DNA from: a virus
Lineage: Duplodnaviria; Caudoviricetes
Direction: 5' to 3' (one strand)
DNA: 63,405 nt
Virus record (IMG/VR): IMGVR_UViG_3300032285_003896
Coordinates: 1 to 63,405 of that record
In this document: positions 3,005 to 18,638 of the stretch, one piece after another
How positions within the stretch are numbered: position 1 is the first letter of the stretch
Layout: each line of letters begins with the position of its first letter
Notes under the pieces: generated by a model
What the model was told of the DNA's origin: nothing
Databases searched by the model: none
The model's input: only the letters and a program-made list of their open reading frames with translations
Program-made: the position numbers and the translations under genes

Positions 3005-3156
3005 TAACTGATTGATTTTCAATACTTTATAACCTATTGATTATCAACAAGTTATAACTGATTGATTTTCAATCGAGAATTTTTGAAAATAGCTAAAATA
3101 AATTTTTTTATTTGAAAAATTTGTTATAATTTTACTATATAACAAATCAATCAAGT
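3005..3156 (+). promoter_or_regulatory. early promoter cassette 1: three 25-bp IHF-like palindromic units, A/T tracts and a Bacteroidota-type -7 box
   Basis: TAAnnnnTTGATT at 3005, 3030 and 3055; AAAATAAATTTTTTT at 3095; TTGTTATAATTTTACTATATAACAAATCAA at 3121. Confidence 0.75.
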
Positions 3157-3519
3157 ATGACTATTAAGATCTTCGTTTTCAACTACCTTACACATGAGAC
3201 AATTATTGACAGTACGATCGAAGTAAATGGTGACTACGCTGTAGCAGAAGCAAACCACAAGGCTTTTAGCGAAATGTATCCAGATTGTCAAGTTAACTTT
3301 GTTATTGACAAAGACAATTTCATCTTTGCTCCTCCTATTAACATGACACAGGACGAAATAGCTTACGACGAAGGTCGTATGACTTGGAACGAGTATATGA
3401 CTAAGTGGCATAACGGTGCAATGGAAAGCGATAGCGATATGCCCGACTACGAAGTAGAGAGACAGATCGACGAGCTTCTTGAGGCCGATTGGAACGAACG
3501 CGATGCTATCTGCCAATAA
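3157..3519 (+). CDS. early hypothetical protein (paralog of 4161..4553)
   Basis: First ORF after cassette 1; P.NM..D...DE..M...KW pattern. Confidence 0.7.
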   Translation: MTIKIFVFNYLTHETIIDSTIEVNGDYAVAEANHKAFSEMYPDCQVNFVIDKDNFIFAPPINMTQDEIAYDEGRMTWNEYMTKWHNGAMESDSDMPDYEVERQIDELLEADWNERDAICQ

Positions 3520-3544
3520 TTAATTAATCTTAAAAATAAAAGTT

Positions 3545-3769
3545 ATGTTATACACAAAAAGAGACTTACAAAATTTAGACGCGATCGAACAAGCTTGGGA
3601 CGGAGACGAACTTAAGATAGAAGAGCAAGGATATAGAGTATGGCTTACGCATCCTGAAAATAGAAAGTACAGTGGCGACTACACTGTAGAAACTTTAGTT
3701 AACGGTAAATGGGAACAACAATCATGTTTATTTGATTTTGAATACAAAAATCTTCCATATATAAAATAA
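3545..3769 (+). CDS. hypothetical protein
   Basis: AAATAAAAGTTATG leader. Confidence 0.65.
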   Translation: MLYTKRDLQNLDAIEQAWDGDELKIEEQGYRVWLTHPENRKYSGDYTVETLVNGKWEQQSCLFDFEYKNLPYIK

Positions 3770-3774
3770 AAGTT

Positions 3775-4071
3775 ATGATGTTTAAACAAAATGTAAACGC
3801 GTCAGCCGGTACTTCTTTTTTCGGTACCACTTTAAAAGCCTCAGTTAATGAATTAATCCAGATTTTTGGAAAGCCTACAATTCAAGATAATACTGGAGAA
3901 GATAAAGTAAATTTTGAGTGGGATGTAGAATGCCATGATGGAACTGTCTTTACTGTATATGATTGGAAAGAATACCGACCGATCGGTCTAGATGAACAAA
4001 TAGAGTGGCATATAGGTGGTATGAGTGAAGCAGATACAGAAAAAGCAAAAAGAGAAATCATTATATTTTAA
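3775..4071 (+). CDS. conserved phage hypothetical protein
   Basis: FGKP...DKVNFEW...FTVYDWK...WHIGG motif seen in many phage early proteins. Confidence 0.7.
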   Translation: MMFKQNVNASAGTSFFGTTLKASVNELIQIFGKPTIQDNTGEDKVNFEWDVECHDGTVFTVYDWKEYRPIGLDEQIEWHIGGMSEADTEKAKREIIIF

Positions 4072-4160
4072 AATAAAAGTTATGGAAGTTACAATAATCC
4101 CGATCTTAGTTTATCCAAATTTTCCTAAAGAAATTAATACAATACATTTAAATTAAAGTT

Positions 4161-4553
4161 ATGAATAAAAATTTTACAGTAGCTAAACAAACTCAAGACA
4201 CTTCTAAATTAACTCTTTGCACTTTAACAATCAAAGATTGGTTCACTGCAAAAGCACAAGTGAAAAAGATCATGCCAAAAGATCCTGAGAAAGCATTAAG
4301 TATTCACAGTAAATTAAATCCTAATGCTATAGTTACAATATCTTGGGATAGTAAAGGTAAGCCAATGAGTAAGACTTTGGTTCCAGATAACATGAGACGT
4401 GATCAGGAGCTTGTGGACGAGCTAGAAATGGAGGTTGAATACTTCACAAAGAAGTGGTATGGTAAGATCAGTAAGGCTAAAATGGCTCAAATTCAAGCAG
4501 AAATAGAGTCAGAAACACAACTTATTGATAATGAATCAGTTGTAATGGGTTGA
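4161..4553 (+). CDS. hypothetical protein (paralog of 3157..3519)
   Basis: AAAGTTATG leader; shared motif pattern. Confidence 0.65.
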   Translation: MNKNFTVAKQTQDTSKLTLCTLTIKDWFTAKAQVKKIMPKDPEKALSIHSKLNPNAIVTISWDSKGKPMSKTLVPDNMRRDQELVDELEMEVEYFTKKWYGKISKAKMAQIQAEIESETQLIDNESVVMG

Positions 4554-4670
4554 TTTTCAATCAGTTATAACTAGTTGATTACCAATAAAAACTTTTAAAA
4601 ATAGCTAAAATAAATTTTTTTATCTCGTAGAATCGTTATAATTTTACTATGAAACAAAACAATAAAGGTT
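4543..4670 (+). promoter_or_regulatory. early promoter cassette 2
   Basis: 25-bp units at 4543 and 4568; CCAATAAAAACTTTT; AAAATAAATTTTTTT at 4607; GTTATAATTTTACTAT. Confidence 0.75.
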
Positions 4671-5546
4671 ATGAATAATCAAATTATCCTCTCTGCTCTA
4701 GAATGTCAATTAGTTGCTAAACAATCTGAATTAGAATCGCACTCAACATTAGTATCAGATCCCGCTTTAAAAGCGCACACTCAAAATGTTTTACAGTCTC
4801 TTCGTGAGAATGTATCTACACTTATCCCTAATATTTCTGTTACTTCAGATCGTATAGAAATTATGAAGTCAGATAAAGATAGGTGGTCAAGTATAACTAT
4901 CTATTTAGAACACGATTGGAGATCTGAGGACAAGACAAAGTATGCTAAAATTAATTGGTATGGATCTTCTGCTACTTTAAAAGATGAAAATACCTTAAAT
5001 GATCTTCAAATATTTGGCGCGGTTGCTGCTAAACTTGCTTGGATCGAATATGAATTCGTAAATAATTGGAGACCGGCTATTTTGGCAATTGATAAAATAC
5101 CACAAAATATACAAAATGAAATCCGCCAAATTAATTATAGCATTCAATCAGTAAAAAATCAAATGAGAAATGACGGAATTGATAGCTATAAAAAAGAGGG
5201 ATTTGTTTGTACTCTTACTCCAACTTTGAATATATCAAGAGATTGGGATACAGAAGGTAATCCATACCAATTACAATCAAGTATTCCTAACATACAGCTA
5301 TCAACAGGTCGTGGTAAGTGGGATTATGTTTTTGCTAAGTCGTTCAAAATTTTAAAAACTAATAAGTACAAGACTACTTTAGAAGTAACTCAAAGCGATG
5401 ATAGAGTTATAGAACGTACAGTTACGGCTAGATCTTTCGATCAATTCATTTCTGAAGTTTACGATTGGCAGACAGATAAAGCTAAAGTGCATAATGATAA
5501 AATCACAGAAAGATTCAATACTCAGTACGCTAAACAATCTGTATAA
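4671..5546 (+). CDS. early hypothetical protein (coiled-coil rich)
   Basis: 291-aa ORF after cassette 2. Confidence 0.7.
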   Translation: MNNQIILSALECQLVAKQSELESHSTLVSDPALKAHTQNVLQSLRENVSTLIPNISVTSDRIEIMKSDKDRWSSITIYLEHDWRSEDKTKYAKINWYGSSATLKDENTLNDLQIFGAVAAKLAWIEYEFVNNWRPAILAIDKIPQNIQNEIRQINYSIQSVKNQMRNDGIDSYKKEGFVCTLTPTLNISRDWDTEGNPYQLQSSIPNIQLSTGRGKWDYVFAKSFKILKTNKYKTTLEVTQSDDRVIERTVTARSFDQFISEVYDWQTDKAKVHNDKITERFNTQYAKQSV

Positions 5547-5566
5547 TTAATTATAAAATAAAAGTT

Positions 5567-5944
5567 ATGAAAAAAATAAGTAGGAAGAAGTCCTTAGTGG
5601 ACTACATGATCGAGAATGGAAACAATTTTAGGTATAGCGACATGATAAAATATCTTGTCAAAATTTGTAGAGATAAAGATTATGAGTGGCAATATGATAG
5701 AGGATTCTATTCAGCAAATTTTGGTTTTAGTGGATACATGACTAGAGGTTGTGGTACTTGTGGAGTATATAAAAATCCCTCAGGTAAATGGAGTGCTAAG
5801 TATTATACAGAAGATGAAATCATGTTGTACAAAATAGAACGATTTGTGAATCCTGCAGTTCGTAAACTAGTAAGATATCCTTCGATATGGAAAGATACAA
5901 AATTAGATCTTATTAAAAAAATAGCTAAACTAGTTAAAAAATAA
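5567..5944 (+). CDS. hypothetical protein
   Basis: AAAGTTATG leader. Confidence 0.6.
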   Translation: MKKISRKKSLVDYMIENGNNFRYSDMIKYLVKICRDKDYEWQYDRGFYSANFGFSGYMTRGCGTCGVYKNPSGKWSAKYYTEDEIMLYKIERFVNPAVRKLVRYPSIWKDTKLDLIKKIAKLVKK

Positions 5945-5949
5945 AAGTT

Positions 5950-6171
5950 ATGGAAGAAATAAAACTAGAAAAAGCAATGTTTGAATTTAGTCAAGATGGT
6001 AATTGTGTTGATGGAGATATTGAGACACTAGAAATTAGATGTGAATCATCTTTAGGCATTGATAATGATGGTGGATGTTTCTACGTATTAAAAACAGAAC
6101 AGTGGGCTATTGACTCTGCTGCGGACTTACAAAAATTATTTGATAGAATTCAAAAATCGATAAAAAAATAA
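5950..6171 (+). CDS. hypothetical protein
   Basis: AAAGTTATG leader. Confidence 0.6.
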   Translation: MEEIKLEKAMFEFSQDGNCVDGDIETLEIRCESSLGIDNDGGCFYVLKTEQWAIDSAADLQKLFDRIQKSIKK

Positions 6172-6174
6172 ATT

Positions 6175-6381
6175 ATGAGTACTAAATATTGTAAAGTGTG
6201 TCAGAAAGAAATTCATCCTAAACGTGTAGCATTAGGATACGGAACTACGTGTGTAGATCATAGTAGTGCAGAAAGATATACAGGAATTGTAGCCGCAGGA
6301 TCTAAGAATGACTTCGAAGTTCAGATCATTAAAGATCCTGAGATTGGTAGACAACTTGTACAGTTATCAAATATTTATTAA
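6175..6381 (+). CDS. TraR/DksA-like zinc-finger protein
   Basis: YCKVCQKEIHPKRV...TCVDH matches the DksA/TraR finger pattern CxxC.EI..R...C. Confidence 0.6.
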   Translation: MSTKYCKVCQKEIHPKRVALGYGTTCVDHSSAERYTGIVAAGSKNDFEVQIIKDPEIGRQLVQLSNIY

Positions 6382-6391
6382 AAAACAAAAA

Positions 6392-6664
6392 ATGAATTAT
6401 TTAAGCCCGGTAGAATATAGTAAAAAAATGAAAGCACTAATGGAAGACGATTCAATTGCTGCAGAAGAAGTAGTACCTGTAAAAGGAGAGACTACTATGA
6501 AAGAAAGACTTTCACGACTTTCACCTGATGAAACAACTAAGCTTAAAGAATATATAGATAGTATCAAAGAGATCAAGAAAGCTATTGATGAATTATTAAA
6601 TAAAGAAGAGATAGAGGAAGGCGGAAACATGTCCTCAGGATTAGTACTTCCTGAAGAGGAATAA
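6392..6664 (+). CDS. late acidic hypothetical protein (start revised to MNYLSP)
   Basis: ATATTTAT at 6371 followed by an A-rich leader to ATG 6392. Confidence 0.6.
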   Translation: MNYLSPVEYSKKMKALMEDDSIAAEEVVPVKGETTMKERLSRLSPDETTKLKEYIDSIKEIKKAIDELLNKEEIEEGGNMSSGLVLPEEE

Positions 6665-6679
6665 AAAAAAATAATAGTT

Positions 6680-7021
6680 ATGCAAAATTTAGTTTCGGGA
6701 ATATTTTTTGGTGTCATAGGACAAGCACTCTCTTTTTTTCAATTACAAGCAGGAATAAGATTCGGTTGGACCGAGAAATGGAGTTGGGCTTTAATGCTAT
6801 TAGGCTTTCCAATTAGCTGGTCTTTCATGAAAAGTGTAAAGTACTTCATCGATGCATTTGATGGAGAGATCTATCCAAGTAGAATATTAGGATTTGCTGT
6901 AGGAATTATTGTGTTTAGTATTTTAGGATGGTTTCTGTTTAGAGAAGGAATCAGTTCTAAAACTGCAGTGTGTTTACTTTTAAGTTTGTGTATTATTCTT
7001 ATCCAAGTACTTTGGAAGTAA
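6680..7021 (+). CDS. small 4-TM DMT/SMR-like membrane protein
   Basis: Four hydrophobic segments; GWFLFREGIS motif typical of the EamA/DMT group. Confidence 0.6.
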   Translation: MQNLVSGIFFGVIGQALSFFQLQAGIRFGWTEKWSWALMLLGFPISWSFMKSVKYFIDAFDGEIYPSRILGFAVGIIVFSILGWFLFREGISSKTAVCLLLSLCIILIQVLWK

Positions 7022-7069
7022 ATTATTTTTTACCTTAATTATTTTATAATTTTATATAAATAAGTTATT

Positions 7070-7792
7070 TTGAAAACGGTGGTTATAGGAGATATTCATG
7101 GTAGATCTATTTGGAAATCAATAGTACAAAAAGAAAATCCTGACAGAGTAATTTTTGTTGGAGATTATTTTGATAGTTTCGATATCCCAGGATTAGATCA
7201 GATATATAATTTCAAAGAGATAATTTATTATAAAGAAAGCAACACTCAAGTTGAAGTTATATTGTTGATCGGTAACCACGACTATCATTATTTCCCGGAT
7301 GTCGGTTACAATGGAACATCAGGATATCAAACTGGAATTGCTCCTAACATTATTCAAGCGCTTCAAGAGAATAGACATTATTTACAAATGGCTTATCAAA
7401 TGGGTGAATTTGTATTCACTCATGCAGGTATAAGTAGCCAATTTATGGATGAAGTATTCGGAACTAACGGATGGAAAGTAGATACTTTAGCAGAAGATTT
7501 AAATGAGCTATTCAAATATAAACCTAAAGCTTTTGAATTTAGTGGTAAAAATCCTTATGGAGATGATCCAGAACAAGGTCCACTTTGGATTAGACCAAAG
7601 TCACTAATGAAAATAAATAGAGACACTTTAAGAAAGAAAATCATCCAAGTAGTAGGTCATACTGCAGTTCATAAAATAGATAAAGGAAGTAAAGCTACAG
7701 GAGGTAGATATTATTTCATAGACACTCTAGACACTAGTCAAGAATATATGATCATAGAAAATAATCAAATCTCATTTAATACAGTAAACTAA
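7070..7792 (+). CDS. calcineurin-like metallophosphoesterase
   Basis: GDIHG, GDYFD, GNHD, HAG and VGHT motifs; TTG start. Confidence 0.9.
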   Translation: MKTVVIGDIHGRSIWKSIVQKENPDRVIFVGDYFDSFDIPGLDQIYNFKEIIYYKESNTQVEVILLIGNHDYHYFPDVGYNGTSGYQTGIAPNIIQALQENRHYLQMAYQMGEFVFTHAGISSQFMDEVFGTNGWKVDTLAEDLNELFKYKPKAFEFSGKNPYGDDPEQGPLWIRPKSLMKINRDTLRKKIIQVVGHTAVHKIDKGSKATGGRYYFIDTLDTSQEYMIIENNQISFNTVN

Positions 7793-7798
7793 AAAGTT

Positions 7799-8008
7799 AT
7801 GGATAGAATAGAAATGTTATATGATAATATGGATCGCTTCGATAAAGAACAAATGGCAGAGTATCTAATGAAAGATGGATATCCCACTCCGTATTCCCAT
7901 CCAGAAGAATTTAAATATCAAAATGAAATTCTAAAGTTGTATGACAAGTGGAATATGCTTACTCAAGAAGAAGAGGAAACTATTTTAAGAATAGCAAATA
8001 AATTTTAA
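7799..8008 (+). CDS. hypothetical protein
   Basis: AAAAGTTATG leader. Confidence 0.55.
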   Translation: MDRIEMLYDNMDRFDKEQMAEYLMKDGYPTPYSHPEEFKYQNEILKLYDKWNMLTQEEEETILRIANKF

Positions 8009-8010
8009 TC

Positions 8011-8175
8011 ATGTCTTTAATGGTAGATCTAATAGAAAATGTAGAGAATCTGTATTCTAATATGCCCGATAAAAGAAAAAGAAAAGAGTATCAAGATTGG
8101 AAACAAACTATAAACATTGTTATACAAGATATAAATAAATTGTGTAAATTTAAAATGTATAACGAAATAAAATAA
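8011..8175 (+). CDS. 54-aa hypothetical protein (not in ORF track)
   Basis: MSLMVDLIENVENLY...YNEIK fills the gap between neighbours. Confidence 0.5.
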   Translation: MSLMVDLIENVENLYSNMPDKRKRKEYQDWKQTINIVIQDINKLCKFKMYNEIK

Positions 8176-8180
8176 AATAT

Positions 8181-8405
8181 ATGGCAGTAAGTCAAAAACC
8201 TAGAAAGAAAAGAGTAGAACCTAAAGTTGTTACTATGCAATCTGTACAAGAGCCATTATGGTTTCCTATTGATTGGGATAAAGTAGAGACTTTAGAAGAC
8301 ATGAAATTTATAATTAAAAACATGGGTTTAGGTTGTTCTAATCAAGCTCCTAGTTATGCAGAACTTAAAAAGTATTTGTCTGATAAACCTACAATTCAAA
8401 ATTAA
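8181..8405 (+). CDS. hypothetical protein
   Basis: ORF in operon-like packing. Confidence 0.6.
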   Translation: MAVSQKPRKKRVEPKVVTMQSVQEPLWFPIDWDKVETLEDMKFIIKNMGLGCSNQAPSYAELKKYLSDKPTIQN

Positions 8406-8407
8406 TA

Positions 8408-8521: not shown

Positions 8522-8522
8522 T

Positions 8523-8952: not shown

Positions 8953-9003
8953 AATTTCGCGAGGGCCTCAAAATTCATAAATACAAATATACAATAATAA
9001 GTT

Positions 9004-9345
9004 ATGCAATACCCAACCTTTGAAAAAATAATGCTTACCTACAAGCGTGCCTTAGAGGACATGACTGCGCTTCACAAGATTGGGTTAGACCTTTCCGAAG
9101 GCCCGTACGACCTCATGAGCCACATGTACGAAATGTTTAATGAATCTATGGGAATTCAATACAACGCCAATGGCGTGGACTGGATTGATTGGTACATATT
9201 CGAAACCGACTGGCAGCAGGCCAAGCACTACGAGGCCTATAATGAAAAGAACCAATTGATAGCCCAAGACTTGCGAGGCCTTTGGGAACTCCTAGAATCA
9301 GAATACAGACTTGATAAAAAACCAGAAATGCCACTAGACTTATGA
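9004..9345 (+). CDS. hypothetical protein
   Basis: GVDWIDWYIFE motif; typical leader. Confidence 0.65.
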   Translation: MQYPTFEKIMLTYKRALEDMTALHKIGLDLSEGPYDLMSHMYEMFNESMGIQYNANGVDWIDWYIFETDWQQAKHYEAYNEKNQLIAQDLRGLWELLESEYRLDKKPEMPLDL

Positions 9346-9587
9346 AAACAAAACCGCAGCAAGACTACATAATCTGCTATAGAGATGTCGACCCGTACAC
9401 TATGCATATCGATGATGAAGGTGAAGTGTGCAGGACCGGTACCCGTGCCGGAGCGGAAAAGATTATCGAGGCGCTAATGGAGTTTAATCTGAAGTCTAAA
9501 CAAGGACGTCCTAATAGAGAATACCACATAGTAATTCAAGAGAGTCGTGGCCCGATAGAGAAGCCCAATCCCTGGTGGACTTGGTAG
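9342..9587 (+). CDS. hypothetical protein
   Basis: ATGA-coupled ORF. Confidence 0.55.
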   Translation: MKTKPQQDYIICYRDVDPYTMHIDDEGEVCRTGTRAGAEKIIEALMEFNLKSKQGRPNREYHIVIQESRGPIEKPNPWWTW

Positions 9588-9595
9588 AACGAATT

Positions 9596-9695
9596 AGTCA
9601 GGTGGCGGAATTGGTAGACGCAATAGGTAAAAATGCCATACGGATGTTTACCCATCTTATGCAAAGGCTTACAGGTTCGAATCCTGTCCTGACTA
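9596..9695 (+). tRNA. tRNA-like RNA (Leu-type D and T arms) with a non-canonical anticodon region
   Basis: Acceptor AGTCAGG/CCTGACT+A, D arm GCGGAATTGGTAGACGC, T arm ACAGGTTCGAATCCTGT; the 49-nt central region has no canonical 5-bp/7-nt anticodon arm. Confidence 0.75.
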
Positions 9696-9757
9696 CTATG
9701 GATTTAAATAGCCCTATCTCATAGGGAATTAGTACATTTATATAAATAATAAAGGTT

Positions 9758-10651
9758 ATGAATCTAGGATACGCTTGCATAAACATGACACTAGGAAAGG
9801 CTGTAACCACTAATCGTGGTATGGTCAAGCGTACGTTTCTCGCGAAGGGCCCGGATTGGGTATCCGAACTGGCGCTTGCTAATTCTAAGGATATAATTAA
9901 AATCCTAGAGTGGAATAGATTAAACGGTATCCGGCTGTTTCGCTTGACGTCTGCCCTTATCCCTTGGGGAGATAGTCTAGATCTCACACAATTAAAAGAC
10001 TACGAAGAGATTCGGTCAGAACTTAAAAAAGCAGGTGACTTTGCCAGGTTTCATGGCATTCGTATCACTTCACATCCTGGTCCATTCAATGTACTTGTGT
10101 CTCCAAATGCTGCAGTTGTAGATAAAACAATTCAAGATCTGGAAATGCACGGCAAGATATTTGATATGATGGGACTCGATGAGACCCCGTATAACAAGAT
10201 CAATATACATTGTAATGGTGTGTATGGAGATAAGAAAGCTGCAATGGATAGATTCATTACAAACTTTAGGAGACTTTCCAAGTCTGTAAGGTCTAGGCTT
10301 ACTGTAGAGAACGATGATAAAGCTAGTATGTATTCTGTTATGGATCTGTGGTATATCTGGAGTAAGATAGGTATTCCTATTGTGTTTGATTATCATCATC
10401 ATGGTTTTTGTACAGGAGATCTTACTGAGGAACAGGCTTTAAAGTTGGCAGCAGAGACCTGGCCTAAAGGCATTAAACAGTTAGTCCATTATTCAGAATC
10501 AAAAGCTCTACATGAAGGGGATGCTAAACAAAAACCTCAAGCACATTCAGATTATATCAAGGCACTACCCAATACTTATGGTCTTGATGTAGATATTATG
10601 GTTGAGGCAAAAGCTAAAGAGTTAGCTATACTACCATTCATTAAAAAATAA
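9758..10651 (+). CDS. uvsE: UV-damage endonuclease
   Basis: LGYACIN, FRLTS, SHPG, VENDD, FDYHHH, HYSES, AHSD and EAKAKE motifs of UvdE. Confidence 0.95.
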   Translation: MNLGYACINMTLGKAVTTNRGMVKRTFLAKGPDWVSELALANSKDIIKILEWNRLNGIRLFRLTSALIPWGDSLDLTQLKDYEEIRSELKKAGDFARFHGIRITSHPGPFNVLVSPNAAVVDKTIQDLEMHGKIFDMMGLDETPYNKINIHCNGVYGDKKAAMDRFITNFRRLSKSVRSRLTVENDDKASMYSVMDLWYIWSKIGIPIVFDYHHHGFCTGDLTEEQALKLAAETWPKGIKQLVHYSESKALHEGDAKQKPQAHSDYIKALPNTYGLDVDIMVEAKAKELAILPFIKK

Positions 10652-11028: not shown

Positions 11029-11031
11029 CCG

Positions 11032-12432: not shown

Positions 12433-12436
12433 TTAT

Positions 12437-13272: not shown

Positions 13273-13291
13273 AATATTTATTCTAAAAGCC

Positions 13292-13408: not shown

Positions 13409-13424
13409 AAACGGATCTTTTTTT
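13396..13424 (+). terminator. intrinsic terminator
   Basis: AGATCC-loop-GGATCT hairpin followed by a T run. Confidence 0.5.
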
Positions 13425-13467
13425 ATTTAAATGGATTGTGTTATATTTGATTAATAAGAAACAAATT

Positions 13468-13875
13468 ATGGCACGATTTACATATTATACAGTGGGTTAT
13501 GGTGTATTTAGTTTGCTGGGTGAACGATACAGGATGGGTAGGATAGAAATATATGATAGCCAAGATGAAAGCGGTTACGCTGTCTCAGAAGGGGAATATT
13601 GTATGCCATTTGAAGCAGCCCGTAAATTTGAGGAATTTATAGAAGCCTTAACAACAGATCTACCAATACAAATAGATATAGGTTCAGTTAAATGGTGTAA
13701 TAAAGAATGCGCTGATGAATTAGGTATAGATCCCGAACTAATGCATGATGATGCAACTAAGAAAGCCTATTGGAGAAAGAAAAACGATATATATGCCGTT
13801 GAAAAAGGCTACAAAGATTGGGATGATTTAGTAGCACATTCAAAATTTGCACCTAAAAATAAAGAAAAGCTATGA
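13468..13875 (+). CDS. hypothetical protein (start revised to MARFTYY)
   Basis: Perfect Bacteroidota -7 box TATATTTG at 13442 precedes ATG 13468. Confidence 0.6.
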   Translation: MARFTYYTVGYGVFSLLGERYRMGRIEIYDSQDESGYAVSEGEYCMPFEAARKFEEFIEALTTDLPIQIDIGSVKWCNKECADELGIDPELMHDDATKKAYWRKKNDIYAVEKGYKDWDDLVAHSKFAPKNKEKL

Positions 13876-14081
13876 CAGCAGCAGAAAAAGCATATGAATT
13901 AGTCTTAAAATTCCAATTCAAGCAAGAAGGTATAAGGAAAGAACTTGCTAAGAGGAGTGCATTAATAGCAGTGCACGAAATGATGAGAATAGCTCCTTGG
14001 GGAGGTGATATAGATACACAAATAGAAGATGGTTCTAAAGAGTTTTATATGAATGTAAAAAAAGAAATAGAAAAACTATGA
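13872..14081 (+). CDS. hypothetical protein, 'EKAxELVxKF...EIEKL' paralog family
   Basis: Similar to 14282..14515. Confidence 0.65.
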   Translation: MTAAEKAYELVLKFQFKQEGIRKELAKRSALIAVHEMMRIAPWGGDIDTQIEDGSKEFYMNVKKEIEKL

Positions 14082-14278
14082 TATCAAAAGAAGACTATTG
14101 GAAGCAGGTAGATTATATAAACAGTATGAAATCAACTGTTACACTAGAACCTAAAATAATACCAAGTGAGAAGTTTACAGTTAAAATCAAATCAACAGAA
14201 AACATATTTTCCAGAATATGGCAAATGATTGTAACTCCTTTTACTTGGATATTTTTTGGCTATATTAAAATTAAATAA
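14078..14278 (+). CDS. hypothetical protein
   Basis: ATGA-coupled ORF. Confidence 0.55.
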   Translation: MISKEDYWKQVDYINSMKSTVTLEPKIIPSEKFTVKIKSTENIFSRIWQMIVTPFTWIFFGYIKIK

Positions 14279-14281
14279 CAT

Positions 14282-14515
14282 ATGACACCACAAGAGAAAG
14301 CAGCAGAATTAGTACGCAAGTTTAAACCATTGGTGACGTTTTCTATGGGCGTTGATCCCTCTTATGTATTAAGAATAGCTAAGAAATGTGCATTAGTGGA
14401 AGTGGATGATATATTAAAAGTTGTACAAAGCTTAAACAGACATGATACTGAATATATTAGGGATGAACACATTCCATACTGGGAGGAAGTAAAACAAGAA
14501 ATAGAAAAACTATGA
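14282..14515 (+). CDS. hypothetical protein, 'EKAxELVxKF...EIEKL' paralog family
   Basis: Similar to 13872..14081. Confidence 0.65.
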   Translation: MTPQEKAAELVRKFKPLVTFSMGVDPSYVLRIAKKCALVEVDDILKVVQSLNRHDTEYIRDEHIPYWEEVKQEIEKL

Positions 14516-14742
14516 GATGGAGAGGTAAGAAAGAATTACAAGACGGAGCTGAACGATTGCGTAAGCGATTTGCTTGGTTTCCTGTTGAAGTATCTACTCA
14601 AAGTAGTAAGAATGATAGATATTGGGTTTGGTTAGAAAGATACTATCAATATCAAAAATACTCAGTAAGTTATGACGTAATTGCAGGGGTAAGTGTTATG
14701 AGGTGGATAACAATTGATAATGTTATATGGGAAAATTTATAA
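14512..14742 (+). CDS. hypothetical protein
   Basis: FAWFPV...WVWLERY motif. Confidence 0.6.
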   Translation: MRWRGKKELQDGAERLRKRFAWFPVEVSTQSSKNDRYWVWLERYYQYQKYSVSYDVIAGVSVMRWITIDNVIWENL

Positions 14743-14745
14743 GTT

Positions 14746-15033
14746 ATGAAACAACAAACAGTAATAGAATACTTAATTGAGCAACTACCTATAAGAATGC
14801 AAAACTATCTACAAAAGGAGATAGAACAAGCCAAAGAAATGGAAAAAGCTCAACGCATCAAGGATTATAATGCGGGTTATGTTGATGCACAACTCAATCA
14901 TGTTAATGATGTAGAGAATTATGTTTATGAAAGTGAATACCTTAAATCAAGAATAGACGAGCTTGATAATCAAATAAAAGATAAGCAAAATAACATTGCA
15001 AATATGTTAATTAATGGAGAGTTAAATAAATAA
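14746..15033 (+). CDS. hypothetical protein, 'QTAVEW...AKEMEK' family
   Basis: QQTVIEYLIEQL...QAKEMEK. Confidence 0.65.
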   Translation: MKQQTVIEYLIEQLPIRMQNYLQKEIEQAKEMEKAQRIKDYNAGYVDAQLNHVNDVENYVYESEYLKSRIDELDNQIKDKQNNIANMLINGELNK

Positions 15034-15036
15034 ACT

Positions 15037-15270
15037 ATGACACAACAAGACATTGAAATCAAAAAAGTGCAAGCAAAAGAGATTGCTATTGCTACAAAGA
15101 AAACTCTATACACATGTGTCTATTGGAATAGCAATGGTGTGATGTTCACTAATTCTCCATCAGAAGATAAAAAATACCAAGAATCTTTAGCCCTAAGTAT
15201 GTCTAAGCACGCAGAACATACATGTATTTATTCATTCGATATTGATATACCCAATTTTAAAAATAAATAA
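15037..15270 (+). CDS. hypothetical protein
   Basis: AATAAACTATG leader. Confidence 0.55.
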   Translation: MTQQDIEIKKVQAKEIAIATKKTLYTCVYWNSNGVMFTNSPSEDKKYQESLALSMSKHAEHTCIYSFDIDIPNFKNK

Positions 15271-15273
15271 ACT

Positions 15274-15495
15274 ATGACAGTCAAAGAACTAATAGAACAA
15301 CTCAGTACCTTAGATCCAGAGATGCAGGTATTTACCACAGGTTATGAAGGAGGATTTGAATCAGTAGAGAATATTAATAGTATTGAAGATATTGTACTAA
15401 ACTACCATGAAGAATGGTACTACGGACCTCACGAAAGCATAAACAATGTCTCAAACTCAAAAGATTATACCACAGTTAAAGGATTAATACTATGA
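15274..15495 (+). CDS. hypothetical protein (MTVKELIEQL...GYEGG family)
   Basis: Common phage small-protein N-terminus. Confidence 0.6.
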   Translation: MTVKELIEQLSTLDPEMQVFTTGYEGGFESVENINSIEDIVLNYHEEWYYGPHESINNVSNSKDYTTVKGLIL

Positions 15496-15707
15496 AACAA
15501 ACAGCAACAGAGTGGTTATTCACTCAGTTATATGAAAAGTTTGAGATGAAGGGTGATGGTAAAGAGATGAATGCGATACTCGAACGGGCAAAGGAAATGG
15601 AGAAAGAGCAGATAATAAGTACCTACTTAGATGGAATAATACACCCTCTTGAGATGGAAGCAACTAAACAAGCTGAACAATACTATAACGAAAGATATAA
15701 CCAATAA
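15492..15707 (+). CDS. hypothetical protein, 'QTAVEW...AKEMEK' family
   Basis: QTATEWL...AKEMEKEQI...EQYYNE. Confidence 0.65.
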   Translation: MKQTATEWLFTQLYEKFEMKGDGKEMNAILERAKEMEKEQIISTYLDGIIHPLEMEATKQAEQYYNERYNQ

Positions 15708-15710
15708 ACT

Positions 15711-15869
15711 ATGTCACACTATATAGACGAAGAAGGTATACTAAAAATAGAAGTATTCACCATAAGTGCTGACTACAAGTTGCTTGACAAAGAAAGTAGA
15801 ATGGAAGTGCTTTCTTTGCTTAAGGATTGGCTTGATATGGAAGTAATTAAAATACAATTCGAAGATTAA
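15711..15869 (+). CDS. 52-aa hypothetical protein (not in ORF track)
   Basis: AATAAACTATG leader; fills the gap. Confidence 0.5.
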   Translation: MSHYIDEEGILKIEVFTISADYKLLDKESRMEVLSLLKDWLDMEVIKIQFED

Positions 15870-15879
15870 ACAAATAACT

Positions 15880-16146
15880 ATGACACAACAAACAGCAGTA
15901 GAATGGTTTTATCAAAGAATATTAGCGGAAGATATTAAATTAGTATTTGAACAAGCCAAACAAATGGAGAAAGGGCAGATAATGAAAGCATACGATGACG
16001 GAGCAATAGAAACAATGCAGGAACAAGAGGGTTTAGATATAAGTAAGGATCAGAATGGTGAAGAATCAGGAAGATACTACAATAAAACGTATAAGGAAGA
16101 TAAGCCAAAGAGAATCCATATAGAAAGAAGCCCGGAATGGCCATAA
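15880..16146 (+). CDS. hypothetical protein, 'QTAVEW...AKEMEK' family
   Basis: QTAVEWF...QAKQMEKGQI...YYNKTY. Confidence 0.65.
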   Translation: MTQQTAVEWFYQRILAEDIKLVFEQAKQMEKGQIMKAYDDGAIETMQEQEGLDISKDQNGEESGRYYNKTYKEDKPKRIHIERSPEWP

Positions 16147-16156
16147 ATATAAAAAC

Positions 16157-16774
16157 ATGATCATACATACAATATGGATAGGATCTGAGATACCTGTTAG
16201 ATACCATGGTAACTTAGATAGACTCAGGATCTTAAATCCAGGCTTTCAACACATACATTGGGGACAAAATGATATAATCAATATTTTGACATATTTCAAT
16301 TTAATAGAATTATATAACTCTATGCCTAGTTTTATAACTAAATTAAATTTAGCAAAGTATTTAATACTAGATAAATTTGGCGGCATATTCACAGACTTAG
16401 ATATAGAATGGAAAAAGTCATTTATAGAAATTATGAATGATCAGCAGTTTAATGATATAGATATATTACTAACACATCCAGCAGATACTCCACATTACTA
16501 TATAAATAATCAACAGGTTTATCTTTTAGATGATCCATTTATTATAGCTAGACCAAATCTACTTAGTCAATGTGTTGACTTTAGATTTAAAAGAGAGTTA
16601 AGAATAGATCCAAAAACAAAAGCTATACATAAAGCAGAACCTATAGGTCCTTTTCTATTAACAGAGTGGATCTATACTAATCAAATAAGGCACAGTGCAT
16701 TTAGCCAAACTGCATTTTTAAGTCTAAACGGTCTTTACGGATATCATCAACAGTTAGATCTGTGGAATAAATAA
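16157..16774 (+). CDS. GT32/OCH1-like glycosyltransferase
   Basis: IIHTIWIG...LNP...KYLILDKFGGIFTDLD (DxD)...IGPFLLT. Confidence 0.8.
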   Translation: MIIHTIWIGSEIPVRYHGNLDRLRILNPGFQHIHWGQNDIINILTYFNLIELYNSMPSFITKLNLAKYLILDKFGGIFTDLDIEWKKSFIEIMNDQQFNDIDILLTHPADTPHYYINNQQVYLLDDPFIIARPNLLSQCVDFRFKRELRIDPKTKAIHKAEPIGPFLLTEWIYTNQIRHSAFSQTAFLSLNGLYGYHQQLDLWNK

Positions 16775-16821
16775 AAAGATATCGACCGGCCCAAGAAATA
16801 ATAAATACTATAAACACCAGA

Positions 16822-17025
16822 ATGCCAGATAAGAATAATAAGGATAATAATCCAGATACACATCCAAAGGTATATATAGCCCTAAATAAAGCAGAGATAG
16901 AGGAATTAAAACAAAAGGTAAAAGAATACATAAACCATAATAATAAAGAAAAGGCAGCAGGTATACAAGAAGCCATAGACTGGATAATAGCACATGATAT
17001 ATACACAAGACCATGGACAAAATAA
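16822..17025 (+). CDS. hypothetical protein
   Basis: ORF on the dominant strand. Confidence 0.5.
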   Translation: MPDKNNKDNNPDTHPKVYIALNKAEIEELKQKVKEYINHNNKEKAAGIQEAIDWIIAHDIYTRPWTK

Positions 17026-17183
17026 AATCACGGCCACTTACCGATAAAGATAGAGAAGCCATAAGCCTATGGATACTAAAGGCCAAACAAGACAAGGCAC
17101 AAAGCTGGCTCGGTAAATGGTATTGGCAGATAAGAATAGATAAGGAAAAGAATAGGAATAGGAATAAGGCTGGAGAGATCTAG
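17013..17183 (+). CDS. 56-aa hypothetical protein (not in ORF track)
   Basis: MDKIKSRPLTDKDREAISLW...AGEI. Confidence 0.4.
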   Translation: MDKIKSRPLTDKDREAISLWILKAKQDKAQSWLGKWYWQIRIDKEKNRNRNKAGEI

Positions 17184-17197
17184 CCTTTCCCTTTTCT

Positions 17198-17235
17198 GCC
17201 AAACTAGTAGGTAAAACATCGCCAAACTAGTAGGT
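17198..17235. repeat. 15-bp direct repeat x2
   Basis: GCCAAACTAGTAGGT at 17198 and 17221. Confidence 0.8.
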
Positions 17236-17391
17236 GGATATATTTGGGTATAAAGATATAAAGATATACTAGGAAAAAAAAGTGTAGCTATAAAATATAA
17301 AGTGTAGGATAGTGTTAGAATGTGTCAATTTGTGTTAGAAAGTGAAAAAACTAGAATCTATAGCAAGGAGCTGTATCCTGCCCGCGTCACC

Positions 17392-17537
17392 TAAGTGATT
17401 GATTATCAACAGGTTAGGGATTATAAATAAAGATATACATAAAGTGTTGGTTACCAATAAAAACTTTTGAAAATAGTTACTCAAATATTTTTTTATATCA
17501 CTGGATTGTCTTACTTTTACTATATAACAAATCAATT
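17392..17537 (+). promoter_or_regulatory. early promoter cassette 3
   Basis: TAAGTGATTGATTATCAACAGGTTA at 17392; degenerate unit at 17440; CCAATAAAAACTTTTGAAAATA; TTGTCTTACTTTTACTATATAACAAATCAA. Confidence 0.75.
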
Positions 17538-17846
17538 ATGACTATGAACAGAATGACTATCCGCCTTACACACTCTAGATCTTATGCAAGACTTGCTAAA
17601 GCAGTTAAAGATATGAATGAGAATATCTATGGTTCTGATCTCTTTGCCGAAGACAGGATCGAATTTAAGGACATCTACGACAAGAACGGAAACTTAATGC
17701 ACTTTGAACTTACAGGAAGCCCTCTAGATATGTTCCAGATCGGCCTAAGATACGGACACATGGAAGAAAGGGAATACCTATCACCTTACTTAAACCAAAC
17801 CTATAAAGATATCTTTACTCCTACACCAGAAACCATTGCACAGTAA
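17538..17846 (+). CDS. early hypothetical protein
   Basis: First ORF after cassette 3. Confidence 0.65.
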   Translation: MTMNRMTIRLTHSRSYARLAKAVKDMNENIYGSDLFAEDRIEFKDIYDKNGNLMHFELTGSPLDMFQIGLRYGHMEEREYLSPYLNQTYKDIFTPTPETIAQ

Positions 17847-17868
17847 TTAAAAAATAAAAATATATAAT

Positions 17869-18078
17869 ATGAAGATGAATGAATTAAAGAGGCTAGCGAC
17901 AATGACTAGCACACAGTATCAGACAGAGAATCCTAATTATGAACCAATGTTCCCTGCCGGTTGGGTAGACGATAAGAATTGGCCTGATCTTACCTATAAC
18001 TATGAGGGCTTTAGGAAGACTCAGATCGAGATCGATGACTATCAAGAGCGTATGGCCGGCTGCTACGATACAGAATAA
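17869..18078 (+). CDS. hypothetical protein
   Basis: ORF with A-rich leader. Confidence 0.55.
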   Translation: MKMNELKRLATMTSTQYQTENPNYEPMFPAGWVDDKNWPDLTYNYEGFRKTQIEIDDYQERMAGCYDTE

Positions 18079-18120
18079 AAGTGTGGCACTTTGGGGATCG
18101 GCTACAATAGGTTGAATGAA

Positions 18121-18145
18121 TTGTCTTATATTTACTATATAACAA
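18121..18145 (+). promoter_or_regulatory. early promoter core
   Basis: TTGTCTTATATTTACTATATAACAA, same core as the cassettes. Confidence 0.65.
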
Positions 18146-18171
18146 TTAGCAATAAACAAAAACAAACAGTT

Positions 18172-18417
18172 ATGCAAAATTCAAACAGGCCTTCGAGCTA
18201 CCAAAAGTTGACTTACATCCAAAAGGTAAGTCGTATTAATCGCAAGCTCCGTACTGGAGACATCACAACCGTAGCTGAGACTACCGGTTTTTCTACCACT
18301 CACGTATCTGACGTGATCTCTGGCAAGTACTTCAACGACAAGATCGTTAACGAAGCCTATGACATGACACGTGGTCGTCTGTCAAATGCAGTTAAGCTGT
18401 CTAGCTTAGAGGCATAA
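18172..18417 (+). CDS. small helix-turn-helix DNA-binding protein (start revised to MQNSNRP)
   Basis: GDITTVAETTGFSTTHVSDVISG HTH; own promoter and terminator. Confidence 0.7.
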   Translation: MQNSNRPSSYQKLTYIQKVSRINRKLRTGDITTVAETTGFSTTHVSDVISGKYFNDKIVNEAYDMTRGRLSNAVKLSSLEA

Positions 18418-18444
18418 TCTATTCGCTTTTTATGATTTGTTACC

Positions 18445-18476
18445 GGCCTGGGGTTTTCACCCTGGGCCTCTTTTTT
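18445..18476 (+). terminator. intrinsic terminator
   Basis: GGCCTGGGG-loop-CCCTGGGCC followed by a T tract. Confidence 0.75.
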
Positions 18477-18477
18477 A

Positions 18478-18638
18478 TAAGTGGTTGATAACCAATAGGT
18501 TAGGATCCCCATAACTGATTGATTTCCAAGCCTTTATAACTGATTGATTGCCAATAAAAACTTTTGAAAATACTCAAAATAAATTTTTTTATTTGAGAAA
18601 TTTGTTATAATTTTACTATATAACAAATCACAAACAGT
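18478..18638 (+). promoter_or_regulatory. early promoter cassette 4
   Basis: Units at 18478, 18512 and 18537; CCAATAAAAACTTTTGAAAATA; AAAATAAATTTTTTT; TTGTTATAATTTTACTATATAACAAATCA. Confidence 0.75.

What the first reader, a model, noticed from the sequence alone, without database searches (positions are those of the whole stretch)
3005..18638. Four dispersed early-promoter cassettes with tandem 25-bp palindromes matching the IHF consensus
At 3005, 4543, 17392 and 18478, units of TAAnnnnTTGATWnTCAAnnnnTTA repeat, often at an exact 25-bp period. The last unit sits about 40 bp upstream of AAAATAAATTTTTTT, followed by a conserved -7 core (TTTTACTAT). Each half matches the IHF consensus WATCAAnnnnTTR. 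They may be host IHF/HU-bent enhancer-like promoters or operators for the phage HTH at 18172. They may also act as homology blocks for shuffling early genes, as repeated early-promoter elements do in T4-like phages.
Basis: partly seen in the sequence, partly recalled or inferred. Interest (0 to 1): 0.7.

Follow-up and report, generated by a model that had tools for sequence, protein, structure and literature searches.

The report
Phage early promoters with host-type dyad sites
Four repeated promoter cassettes in an uncultured Bacteroidota phage each carry tandem copies of a 25-base two-fold symmetric protein-binding site that also occurs in many other phages and about 1,700 times in one bacterial genome, so the phage probably borrows an abundant host DNA-bending protein to drive its first genes.

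Summary
Four ~150-bp cassettes (3005-3156, 4518-4670, 17392-17537, 18478-18638) share a fixed layout: 1-3 dyad units of 25 bp, phased A/T tracts, a T-run, a TAnnTTTA -7 box, a conserved leader, then ATG. All 13 exact unit matches in the window lie in these cassettes; the reversed control gives 0.

Relatives (G001, G002) keep the cassettes in the same register.

The unit is a protein site, not a hairpin. Its spacer positions pair no more often than shuffled columns do. It reads as a two-fold symmetric version of the IHF half-site WATCAA-N4-TTR.

It is not private to this phage. Such arrays stand upstream of Bacteroidota-type promoters in 47 other viral loci. The perfect 25-mer occurs 1,705 times in one Cytophagales genome and in 45 of 121 genomes of that order, with 0 control hits.

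The phage HTH family is missing from 3 of 5 complete array-bearing phages and from 9 of 9 motif-rich bacteria. A host factor, most likely IHF/HU-like, is therefore the best candidate. Binding was not shown.

Mosaic cassettes and rearranged genes support the shuffling idea.

The parts
3005..3079 (+). Cassette 1: three 25-bp dyad units (3005-3029, 3030-3054, 3055-3079); core centres at 3017, 3042 and 3067
3073..3111 (+). Cassette 1: phased A/T tracts and T-run (3103-3109) in the -33 region
   Evidence: read; exact AAATAAATTTTTTTAT at 3096
3127..3156 (+). Cassette 1: -7 box TAATTTTA (3127-3134), inferred start near 3139, conserved leader up to the ATG at 3157 (ORF 3157-3519)
   Evidence: position rule for the -7 box (-12 to -5) from PMC9723704 passages. 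The start site is inferred, not measured.
4518..4592 (+). Cassette 2: degenerate unit 4518-4542 (inside the end of ORF 4161-4553), then units 4543-4567 and 4568-4592
4593..4670 (+). Cassette 2: A/T tracts, T-run 4615-4621, -7 box 4639-4646, inferred start near 4651, leader; ORF 4671-5546 follows
17392..17464 (+). Cassette 3: distal unit 17392-17416, a 23-bp A/T spacer, proximal unit 17440-17464
17465..17537 (+). Cassette 3: A/T tracts, T-run 17488-17494, -7 box 17512-17519, inferred start near 17524; ORF 17538-17846 follows
18445..18477 (+). Intrinsic-terminator-like hairpin and T-run that close the HTH gene just before cassette 4
   Evidence: 10 pairs, 7 G-C; -18.6 kcal/mol, z -3.3
18478..18561 (+). 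Cassette 4: units 18478-18502, 18512-18536 and 18537-18561
18562..18638 (+). Cassette 4: A/T tracts, T-run 18584-18590, -7 box 18608-18615, inferred start near 18620; ORF 18639-19061 follows
18112..18417 (+). Array-less promoter-like copy (18112-18152) and the 81-aa Cro/XRE-like HTH gene (18172-18417), lying between cassettes 3 and 4
   Evidence: (family D14)
19066..19107 (+). Promoter of the same T-run / TAnnTTTA type but without dyad units, before ORF 19133-19936. Further array-less copies lie at 61822-61863 (+), about 32130-32170 (-), 52926-52966 (-) and 52969-53010 (+).
   Evidence: (families D8, D10)

Best explanation
Each cassette is a self-contained early transcription unit read by the host RNA polymerase.

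Layout. Each has a Bacteroidota sigma-A-type promoter: a T-run where the -33 element should be, and a TAATTTTA -7 box. Phased A/T tracts precede it and should curve the DNA. Further upstream lie one to three 25-bp dyad sites. The promoter-proximal site is always centred about 71-72 bp upstream of the inferred start.

What the dyad sites are. They are protein-binding sites, not hairpins. They are most likely bound by an abundant host DNA-binding protein. The best candidate is a homodimeric IHF/HU-type bending protein, because each half-site reads WATCAA-N4-TTR and the two TT/AA steps are 9 bp apart.

Proposed action. After DNA injection, before any phage protein exists, this host protein would bend the upstream DNA. 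The bend would strengthen or gate transcription of the small genes of unknown function that follow.

Second role. The cassettes are about 150 bp long, all in one orientation, and repeated four to five times over 16-22 kb. They therefore also serve as patches of homology at which recombination deletes, moves and swaps the genes between them.

Shown here: the anatomy; its conservation; the absence of pairing covariation; the spread of the motif in phages and bacteria; the mosaic cassettes.

Inferred: who binds; activation rather than repression; the start sites; early timing.
For: Anatomy and register.
- Thirteen cassettes from the window, G001 and G002 keep the proximal unit 63-64 bp before the TTTAC anchor.
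- The exact unit pattern occurs only in the cassettes: window 13 of 13, G002 11 of 11, G001 13 of 14. The reversed control gives 0.

Promoter type.
- The -7 box has the form TAnnTTTA, against the sigma-A consensus TAnnTTTG, which lies at -12 to -5 (PMC9723704 passages).
- The same T-run plus -7 box recurs before other genes without arrays.

Protein site rather than hairpin.
- In 239 distinct units from viral contigs, positions -9 to -6 pair with +6 to +9 at 0.34, 0.44, 0.25 and 0.54. Shuffled columns give 0.41, 0.45, 0.28 and 0.53.
- The same holds for 77 distinct bacterial sites.
- Arrays 3 and 4 fold no better than shuffles, with z about -1.

IHF likeness.
- The information profile is high at TAA(C), TTGAT and CAA and lower in the spacers.
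- 10 of 11 units match WATCAANNNNTTR on the promoter-distal arm.
- The introduction of PMC1874591 describes WATCAA starting near the site centre, TTR 4 bp further on, and two AA steps 9 bp apart.

Host origin of the binder.
- The symmetric 25-mer has 1,705 sites in G029, a Microscillaceae MAG by its record title. Other genomes of that order have 86, 30, 25, 23, 19, 17, 14 and 12 sites. 45 of 121 genomes have at least one, and the reversed palindromic control gives 0 in all 121.
- 19 of 151 genomes of the order of a Chryseobacterium genome have 1-2 sites, against 0 for the control.
- In G029, 80 sites in 161 kb comprise 77 different sequences. 66 of them lie outside long open frames, which cover 65-85% of that DNA.
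- No PF00216 gene is found in 8 of 8 phage records, while 5 of 5 bacterial genomes have one.

Generality.
- 74 of 131 tandem-core matches in IMG/VR have TAA arms on both units.
- In 47 loci unlike the window, a -7-like box peaks 65-69 bp (11 cases), 50-54 bp (7) and 75-79 bp (6) after the proximal centre. Many of these follow a canonical TTTG -33 element.

Recombination.
- G001 cassette 1 has the upstream half of G001 cassette 2 and the downstream half of window cassette 1.
- Window cassette 4 carries the cassette-1 spacer, unlike its orthologues.
- The two G002 cassettes A and B are 87% alike and at most 64% like any other cassette.
- In G002, the homologue of ORF 3157 with its cassette lies upstream of the block homologous to 120-2505. 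Window ORFs 3545-4553 have no homologue there.
Against: - No binding, bending or transcription data exist. No RNA run holds the stretch.
- The binder is unidentified. A winged-helix dimer would also fit the spacing of the conserved blocks.
- E. coli IHF sites are asymmetric and protect about 34 bp (PMC1874591). Units packed every 25 bp may not all be occupied at once.
- The units have a polarity that a symmetric homodimer does not explain. The strong arm is always the promoter-distal one: 10 forward against 3 reverse matches.
- The host of this phage is unknown. The closest isolate is a Flavobacterium phage, at 45% amino-acid identity in a baseplate protein. That isolate has no such site. The Chryseobacterium-order sample (presumably Flavobacteriales, by the record title) has only 1-2 perfect sites per genome.
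- Across 300 sampled Bacteroidota, only G029, and weakly G161, stand out with the looser pattern.
- In G029 the sites show no fixed distance to TAnnTTTG boxes. A promoter role is therefore not general in bacteria.
- The -33 region of the window's cassettes is a T-run, not TTTG.
- Arrays 1 and 2 can fold, with z of -5.5 and -4.4.
Confidence: 0.5

Rival explanations
1. The units are operators for a phage-encoded regulator. One candidate is the Cro/XRE-like HTH at 18172-18417, made from its own array-less promoter. It would bind the arrays and shut off, or boost, the four early promoters as infection proceeds.
For: - The gene lies between cassettes 3 and 4.
- It is unusually conserved: 99% amino-acid identity to G001 and 84% to G002, while neighbouring genes are lost.
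- 120 listed clusters are at least 78% identical.
- The family profile hits Cro-like chains at E = 0.0012.
- 18 of 78 members hit HTH_31 and 14 of 78 hit HTH_3 at E up to 0.1.
- The model is a confident five-helix bundle with pLDDT 93.
- The sites are dyads, as operators are.
Against: - The family is found in only 2 of 5 array-bearing phage records that are at least 90% complete. Overall it is found in 3 of 20 records searched; 2 further records were not held.
- It is found in 0 of 9 motif-rich bacterial genomes at E below 0.001, including the one with 1,705 sites.
- The sites lie about 59-135 bp upstream of the inferred start and do not overlap the -33 or -7 elements, which is unusual for a repressor.
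- The structure search gave only weak HTH matches, with E about 1.
- Another, unidentified phage protein cannot be excluded.
Confidence: 0.17
2. The palindromes act as nucleic-acid structures. They would be stem-loops that terminate or insulate transcription coming from upstream, as in the terminator half of the PeSL cassettes of T4-like phages, or cruciforms.
For: - Arrays 1 and 2 fold well, at -20 and -22 kcal/mol with z of -5.5 and -4.4.
- In some other phages the proximal unit is a perfect palindrome followed by a T-run, for example loci L040, L043 and L076.
- Single perfect copies next to tRNA genes in bacteria look like terminators.
Against: - There is no pairing covariation in 239 viral or 77 bacterial units.
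- Arrays 3 and 4 fold like shuffles.
- The window's units average 7.3 of 12 symmetric pairs, and their proximal units lack the outer arm.
- Cassette 4 has its own separate G+C-rich terminator.
Confidence: 0.08
3. The unit is a selfish or structural repeat of the REP/BIME or MITE kind, or the target of a recombinase or replication protein, that spreads in genomes. Its place before promoters would be a by-product.
For: - Copy number is extreme in one genome: 1,705.
- Copies sit at several contig ends with one shared flank in one MAG and in a Chryseobacterium assembly.
- G029 holds 95-97-bp tandem repeats that combine the site with a G+C hairpin.
- Cassettes behave as recombination points.
Against: - 77 of 80 sampled bacterial sites differ in sequence. 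Conservation is position-specific rather than uniform, as expected for selected binding sites and not for decaying copies.
- In phages the proximal unit keeps a fixed register to the promoter in 13 of 13 cassettes, and a preferred distance in other phages.
- Association with a RAYT-type transposase was not tested.
Confidence: 0.1

Closest known systems
PeSL cassettes (promoter-early stem-loop) of T4-like phages (PMC2839356, passages read; PMC4122927, abstract read)
   Same: - Short composite regulatory cassettes, repeated in a region rich in small genes of unknown function.
- A strong host-type early promoter with an A/T-rich stretch upstream and a palindromic element before it.
- The copies serve as points of homologous exchange that insert, delete or swap the flanking genes.
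   Different: - The palindromic part of a PeSL is a stable, usually G/C-rich stem-loop shown to terminate transcription.
- Here it is an A/T-rich 25-bp dyad, in tandem, without pairing covariation. It also occurs as a motif in bacterial genomes.
- The promoter is of the Bacteroidota type, not sigma-70.
- The phage is not a close T4 relative. Its best isolate match is a Flavobacterium phage at 45% in one baseplate protein.
- No circular excision products were looked for.
Binding sites of E. coli integration host factor (consensus and geometry from the introduction of PMC1874591)
   Same: - The half-site letters and spacing are WATCAA-N4-TTR.
- WATCAA starts at the site centre.
- Two AA/TT steps lie 9 bp apart.
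- The context is A/T-rich.
   Different: - IHF sites are asymmetric, with the consensus on one side and an optional A-tract on the other, and they span about 34 bp.
- Here both sides carry the half-site, the site is 25 bp, and sites abut every 25 bp.
- The organisms are Bacteroidota, for which I found no described IHF consensus.
- No binding data exist.
IHF-assisted phage early promoters (lambda pL, Mu Pe) and SPO1 TF1, a phage HU-type protein that binds early promoters.
   Same: A DNA-bending protein of the HU/IHF family bound upstream of, or at, phage early promoters modulates host-polymerase transcription.
   Different: - Those systems use single asymmetric sites, or a phage-encoded protein (TF1).
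- Here there are up to three tandem symmetric sites, and no HU/IHF gene in 8 of 8 phage records.
REP/BIME elements of enterobacteria, some of which carry an IHF site (recalled; only the abstract start of PMC3733652 was seen, in the listing)
   Same: - Hundreds to thousands of short palindromic units in intergenic DNA of one genome.
- Occasional composite tandem repeats that join a hairpin and a protein site.
   Different: - REP copies are related hairpins.
- The sites here differ in their spacers (77 of 80 are distinct) and show no covariation.

Membership tests
IHF-type binding site | Consensus WATCAA-N4-TTR | tested here: met
   10 of 11 units match on the promoter-distal arm and 2 of 11 on the proximal arm. 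The window has 23 matches against 10.5 expected. The information profile agrees.
IHF-type binding site | Two AA/TT steps 9 bp apart at the centre of the site | tested here: met
   TT at -5/-4 and AA at +4/+5 are invariant or nearly so in 33 distinct units. The feature is as described in the introduction of PMC1874591.
IHF-type binding site | Asymmetric site of about 34 bp, with the consensus on one side only | tested here: not met
   The unit is a 25-bp dyad and units abut at a 25-bp period.
IHF-type binding site | Bound and bent by an HU/IHF-family protein | not testable with these tools
   PF00216 genes: 0 of 8 phage records and 5 of 5 bacterial genomes.
PeSL cassette | Strong host-type early promoter with an A/T-rich upstream region | tested here: inconclusive
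   By sequence there is a TAnnTTTA box, a T-run and phased A tracts. No start site or activity data exist.
PeSL cassette | Stable stem-loop that terminates transcription | tested here: not met
   z-scores are -5.5, -4.4, -1.0 and -1.1 for the four arrays. There is no covariation.
PeSL cassette | Several copies among variable small genes, with exchange between copies | tested here: met
   There are four copies in 16 kb of ORFs, most of which have no Pfam or PHROG hit. Cassettes are mosaic and gene order is rearranged in relatives. Exchange is inferred by comparison only.
Operator array of a phage Cro/CI-type repressor | Cognate HTH gene travels with the sites | tested here: not met
   The family is present in 2 of 5 complete array-bearing phage records and in 0 of 9 motif-rich bacteria at E below 0.001.
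Operator array of a phage Cro/CI-type repressor | Sites overlap the promoter elements | tested here: not met
   The proximal unit ends about 55 bp before the -7 box.
REP/MITE-type repeat | Many intergenic copies in a genome | tested here: met
   There are 1,705 perfect sites in G029. 66 of 80 sampled sites lie outside long open frames.
REP/MITE-type repeat | Copies related by descent and forming hairpins | tested here: not met
   77 of 80 sequences are distinct, and spacer pairing equals the shuffles.
Bacteroidota sigma-A promoter | -7 box TAnnTTTG and a -33 TTTG about 19-20 bp upstream | tested here: inconclusive
   The -7 box is TAATTTTA in 4 of 4 cassettes, with A in place of G. The -33 position holds a T-run, not TTTG. 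Canonical TTTG ... TAnnTTTG promoters follow the arrays in other phages. The consensus is from PMC9723704 passages; the -33 element and its spacing are recalled.

The most novel reading that the evidence does not exclude
Some Bacteroidota have a sequence-specific, homodimeric nucleoid protein of the IHF/HU type, or an unknown analogue. Its 25-bp palindromic site (TAA-N4-TTGAT-N-ATCAA-N4-TTA) marks up to about 1,700 intergenic places in a genome. Many unrelated large phages of these bacteria have captured tandem copies of the site as an enhancer for their first promoters, so that early transcription depends on, and reports, the state of the host nucleoid. The same cassettes would drive the turnover of early genes.
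Probability: 0.3. Interest if true: 0.8.

Novelty: new variant of a known kind. Interest (0 to 1): 0.68.

Why it matters
Transcription control in phages of Bacteroidota is almost unknown, and no sequence-specific nucleoid protein site has been described for this phylum in the papers I could search.

The cassettes give a compact, testable element: a defined 25-bp site, at a fixed distance from a host-type promoter, present in many uncultured freshwater phages. The same site is extremely frequent in the intergenic DNA of at least one Cytophagales genome.

- Finding the binder would identify a global DNA-organising protein of these bacteria.
- It would also show how phages plug into that protein at the moment of infection.
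- The motif may help assign hosts to uncultured phages.
- The cassettes also extend the PeSL idea, that repeated regulatory cassettes act as engines of gene shuffling, beyond T4-like phages of Proteobacteria.

Tried and rejected
- Close isolates. The only DNA match in the phage collection was a 247-bp gene fragment of Flavobacterium phage immuto. That phage has neither the promoter core beyond chance nor any dyad unit.
- The HTH protein. It has no Pfam hit at E up to 0.01; at E up to 0.1 the only hit is a chance Amidase_6 match. It has no PDB sequence hit and no tblastn hit in isolated phages. The fold search gave only weak HTH rows.
- Expression. No RNA holder was listed for window 2600-5600.
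- DNA contigs of four runs. They break or diverge at cassettes: ends at 3120 and 18601/18627, and loose ends at 3037, 3072 and 18537. One low-depth contig joins 3124 to 20123. These are short-word contigs laid at 85% likeness, so I treat them as a hint only.
- Bacterial sites as part of a fixed promoter layout. There is no preferred distance to TAnnTTTG in G029, and positions relative to crude ORF calls are mixed.
- Whole-phylum enrichment with the looser pattern. Most of 300 genomes have 0-6 matches against 0-4 for the control.
It is partly made up of chance terminator-like hairpins next to tRNA genes.
- Earlier notes of this scan gave nothing relevant.
- Not used: the complex-prediction job and the second structure job.
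- Not done: profiling which protein family tracks motif density, and a RAYT search.

Full report
**What the window is.** The window is the whole held record: 63,405 bp, one linear contig, with no terminal repeat. CheckV estimates it at 39% complete. It is a fragment of a large tailed phage.
- Positions 120-22605 hold about 60 small plus-strand ORFs. Almost none has a PHROG or Pfam match.
- Next come minus-strand genes: glycosyltransferases, a repetitive 1,021-aa protein and baseplate wedge proteins.
- Last comes a plus-strand replication block.
- The nearest isolate is Flavobacterium phage immuto, at 45% amino-acid identity over a baseplate protein.
- Relatives with the same cassettes exist in IMG/VR. 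G001 is 136 kb and 82% complete; G002 is 162 kb and 95% complete. Three shorter contigs also carry them. Of the 31 loci that hold the 17-base promoter word, 9 loci from these 5 contigs carry the cassette.

The four cassettes align at 77% mean column identity and appear as repeat families D6-D12.
- Cassette 1 has three units at an exact 25-bp period.
- Cassette 2 has two units plus a degenerate one inside the preceding ORF.
- Cassette 3 has two units whose cores are 48 bp apart.
- Cassette 4 has three units spaced 34 and 25 bp.
- The core TTGATNNNCAA occurs 22 times against 4.6 expected.
- The armed pattern TAANNNNTTGRTNNYCAA occurs 13 times exactly, always inside the cassettes, against 0 for the reversed control. 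In G002, 11 of 11 matches lie in its four cassettes. In G001, 13 of 14 lie in its five cassettes.
- G001 shows that a fifth cassette lies just upstream of where the window begins.

**Anatomy.** I anchored 13 cassettes (window 4, G001 5, G002 4) on the TTTAC of the promoter. From the proximal unit onward they stay in one register without gaps. The proximal unit's centre is 63-64 bp before the anchor in all 13 cassettes: 12, and the thirteenth (the proximal unit of G002's third cassette) added by that offset. The order of elements is:
- distal units;
- the proximal unit;
- a stretch with A-tracts about 10-11 bp apart, read directly from the sequence;
- a run of seven T;
- a variable 13-15-bp spacer;
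- TAATTTTA;
- a conserved CTATATAAC-type leader;
- the ATG, 14-20 nt after the inferred start.

A transcriptome study of Flavobacterium psychrophilum places the sigma-A box TAnnTTTG at -12 to -5 (PMC9723704, passages). By that rule the starts would lie near 3139, 4651, 17524 and 18620, and the proximal unit would be centred at -71 or -72. This is inference; no RNA data were available.

The same T-run and TAnnTTTA box, without units, stand before other genes at 19067, 61823, 32170(-), 52966(-) and 52969. The units are therefore an addition to a general promoter type of this phage.

**The unit is a protein site.** A profile of 33 distinct units (from 36) shows high information at T-A-A-C, T-T-G-A-T and C-A-A. 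Information is lower at the 3-4 spacer positions and weaker on the promoter-proximal outer arm. On average 7.3 of 12 positions are symmetric.

If the palindrome mattered as a hairpin, the variable spacer positions should co-vary. They do not.
- In 239 distinct units collected from many viral contigs, the four spacer pairs are complementary at 0.34, 0.44, 0.25 and 0.54. Shuffled partners give 0.41, 0.45, 0.28 and 0.53.
- The same holds for 77 bacterial sites.
- Arrays 1 and 2 fold well as RNA (z -5.5 and -4.4), as tandem dyads must. Arrays 3 and 4 do not (z about -1).
- Cassette 4 has its own G+C-rich terminator just upstream.

**Likeness to IHF sites.** The promoter-distal arm, read on the other strand, matches WATCAANNNNTTR in 10 of 11 units. 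The proximal arm matches in 2.

The introduction of PMC1874591 (passages) states that WATCAA starts near the centre of an IHF site. It also states that TTR lies four base pairs further on, and that two AA steps nine base pairs apart take the intercalating prolines. In the unit, W sits at the dyad centre, TTR-type letters lie at +/-10 to 12, and the invariant TT and AA steps are nine base pairs apart.

The unit is thus an IHF half-site written twice, head to head, as a homodimer would want. It differs from E. coli sites in being symmetric, 25 bp long and tandem. A winged-helix dimer could also fit the block spacing, so the protein family is a candidate, not a result.

**The motif is not private to this phage.** Of 131 matches, 74 carry TAA arms on both units.
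- 20 loci are window-like. 47 non-redundant loci have other downstream sequence.
- In those 47, a -7-like box peaks at 65-69 bp (11 cases), 50-54 bp (7) and 75-79 bp (6) after the proximal centre. Many are textbook Bacteroidota promoters with a TTTG -33 element.
- Complete phage genomes carry many units. G008 (274 kb) has 22 against 0 for the control, and G006 has 9 against 1.

Bacterial genomes carry it too.
- The Microscillaceae MAG G029 (family name from the record title; order Cytophagales) has 671+675 matches of the half-armed pattern against 0+1 for the control.
- G029 has 1,705 perfect symmetric 25-mers.
- In 161 kb of G029 there are 80 sites, one per 2 kb. 77 are different sequences, and 66 lie outside long open frames, although such frames cover 65-85% of the DNA.
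- In a sample of 121 genomes of that order, 45 have at least one perfect site. Nine, G029 among them, have 12 or more; the next highest counts are 86, 30 and 25. The reversed control, which is equally palindromic, has none in any genome.
- In 151 genomes of the order of a Chryseobacterium genome, 19 have one or two sites and the control none.
- Across 300 Bacteroidota with the looser pattern, only G029 is extreme.
- In G029 the sites keep no fixed distance to -7 boxes.

**Who binds?** No phage record searched encodes an HU/IHF-family protein: 0 of 3 and 0 of 5 complete array-bearing genomes. Five of five bacterial genomes do.

- Its family of 106 clusters at 50% identity gives HTH_31 hits in 18 of 78 members and HTH_3 hits in 14 of 78.
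- The family profile finds Cro-like chains at E = 0.0012.
- The model is a confident five-helix bundle.
- Structure matches are weak.

Yet the family is present in only 2 of 5 complete array-bearing phage genomes. It is present in 0 of 9 motif-rich bacteria at E below 0.001. It therefore cannot be the general reader of this motif.

Early promoters must also fire before any phage protein is made. Both points favour a host protein. The HTH may still act locally, for instance in early shut-off.

**Shuffling.** The cassettes are mosaics of each other.
- G001 cassette 1 shares its downstream half with window cassette 1, but its upstream half with G001 cassette 2. It is 87% identical to that paralogue and 80% to its orthologue.
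- Window cassette 4 carries the cassette-1 spacer. It is 85% identical to G001 cassette 1 and 77% to its own orthologue.
- G002 cassettes A and B are 87% alike and at most 64% like any other.

Gene order also differs at cassettes.
- In G002, a cassette plus the homologue of ORF 3157 (87% amino-acid identity) lies upstream of the block homologous to 120-2505. In the window it lies downstream of that block.
- The next G002 cassette is followed by the homologue of ORF 4671. Window ORFs 3545-4553 have no homologue in the G002 stretch.
- The ORFs right after cassettes 3 and 4 (17538, 17869, 18639) also lack G002 homologues, while the HTH gene and ORF 19133 are kept.

Contigs of four DNA runs end or diverge inside cassettes. 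This is only a hint, because repeats break short-word assemblies.

This pattern matches what was described for PeSL cassettes of T4-like phages (PMC2839356 passages; PMC4122927 abstract).

**Open points.**
- The polarity of the units is unexplained: the strong arm is always promoter-distal.
- It is unclear whether three sites 25 bp apart can be filled at once.
- The host of this phage is unknown.
- Activation against repression is undecided.
- I found no paper describing this motif or a Bacteroidota IHF consensus. These searches cover only the held library.

**Verdict.** The cassettes are real, conserved and promoter-linked. They are best read as host-factor-assisted early promoters that double as recombination modules. 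The cassette-like layout has a known analogue, while the site itself and its spread in phages and bacteria appear to be new.

Noticed in passing
G029 (loci L283-L296), not in the window: A Microscillaceae MAG carries 1,705 perfect copies of the 25-bp palindrome TAA-N4-TTGAT-N-ATCAA-N4-TTA, about one relaxed site per 2 kb, mostly intergenic. Some lie in 95-97-bp tandem repeats that pair the site with a G+C-rich hairpin (L283 positions 1601 and 1698; L296 positions 196 and 291).
   Followed up: partly
L162, L170, L209, L233, L244 and G026 contig ends: In one candidate-division MAG, and in a Chryseobacterium assembly, the palindrome sits at several contig ends with an identical flank. This suggests a multi-copy element that breaks assemblies.
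   Followed up: no
window 3005-18561: The units are polar. The well-conserved arm (TAAC-N3-TTGAT) is always on the promoter-distal side: 10 forward against 3 reverse exact matches. A symmetric binder does not explain this.
   Followed up: partly
window 32170-35235 (-) and 35255-36481 (-): A 1,021-aa ORF is built largely of 18-nt (six-residue) repeats, with dozens of copies at 60-80% identity. Its neighbour hits the same PHROG of unknown function. They are probably fibre-like structural proteins.
   Followed up: no
window 9587-9732: Contigs of three of the four runs laid (X2, X3, X4) replace these 144 bases by about 28 other bases. One run shows a depth spike (165) at 9108-9741. This may be a small variable or mobile insert just before the UvdE-like endonuclease gene (9758-10651).
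   Followed up: no
window 13872-16146: A run of about ten small (52-95 aa) paralogous ORFs shares a repeated 25-nt word (repeat family D15). Gene content here differs strongly from G001 and G002.
   Followed up: no
window 19133-19936: A DUF932 protein is 100% identical to its G001 homologue while neighbouring genes are 75-93% identical. It has its own array-less promoter at 19066-19107.
   Followed up: no
window 29607-32127 (-): Two adjacent paralogous glycosyltransferase genes (PHROG 24687) share a 69-nt repeat. The second has a T-run / TAnnTTTA promoter at about 32130-32170.
   Followed up: no
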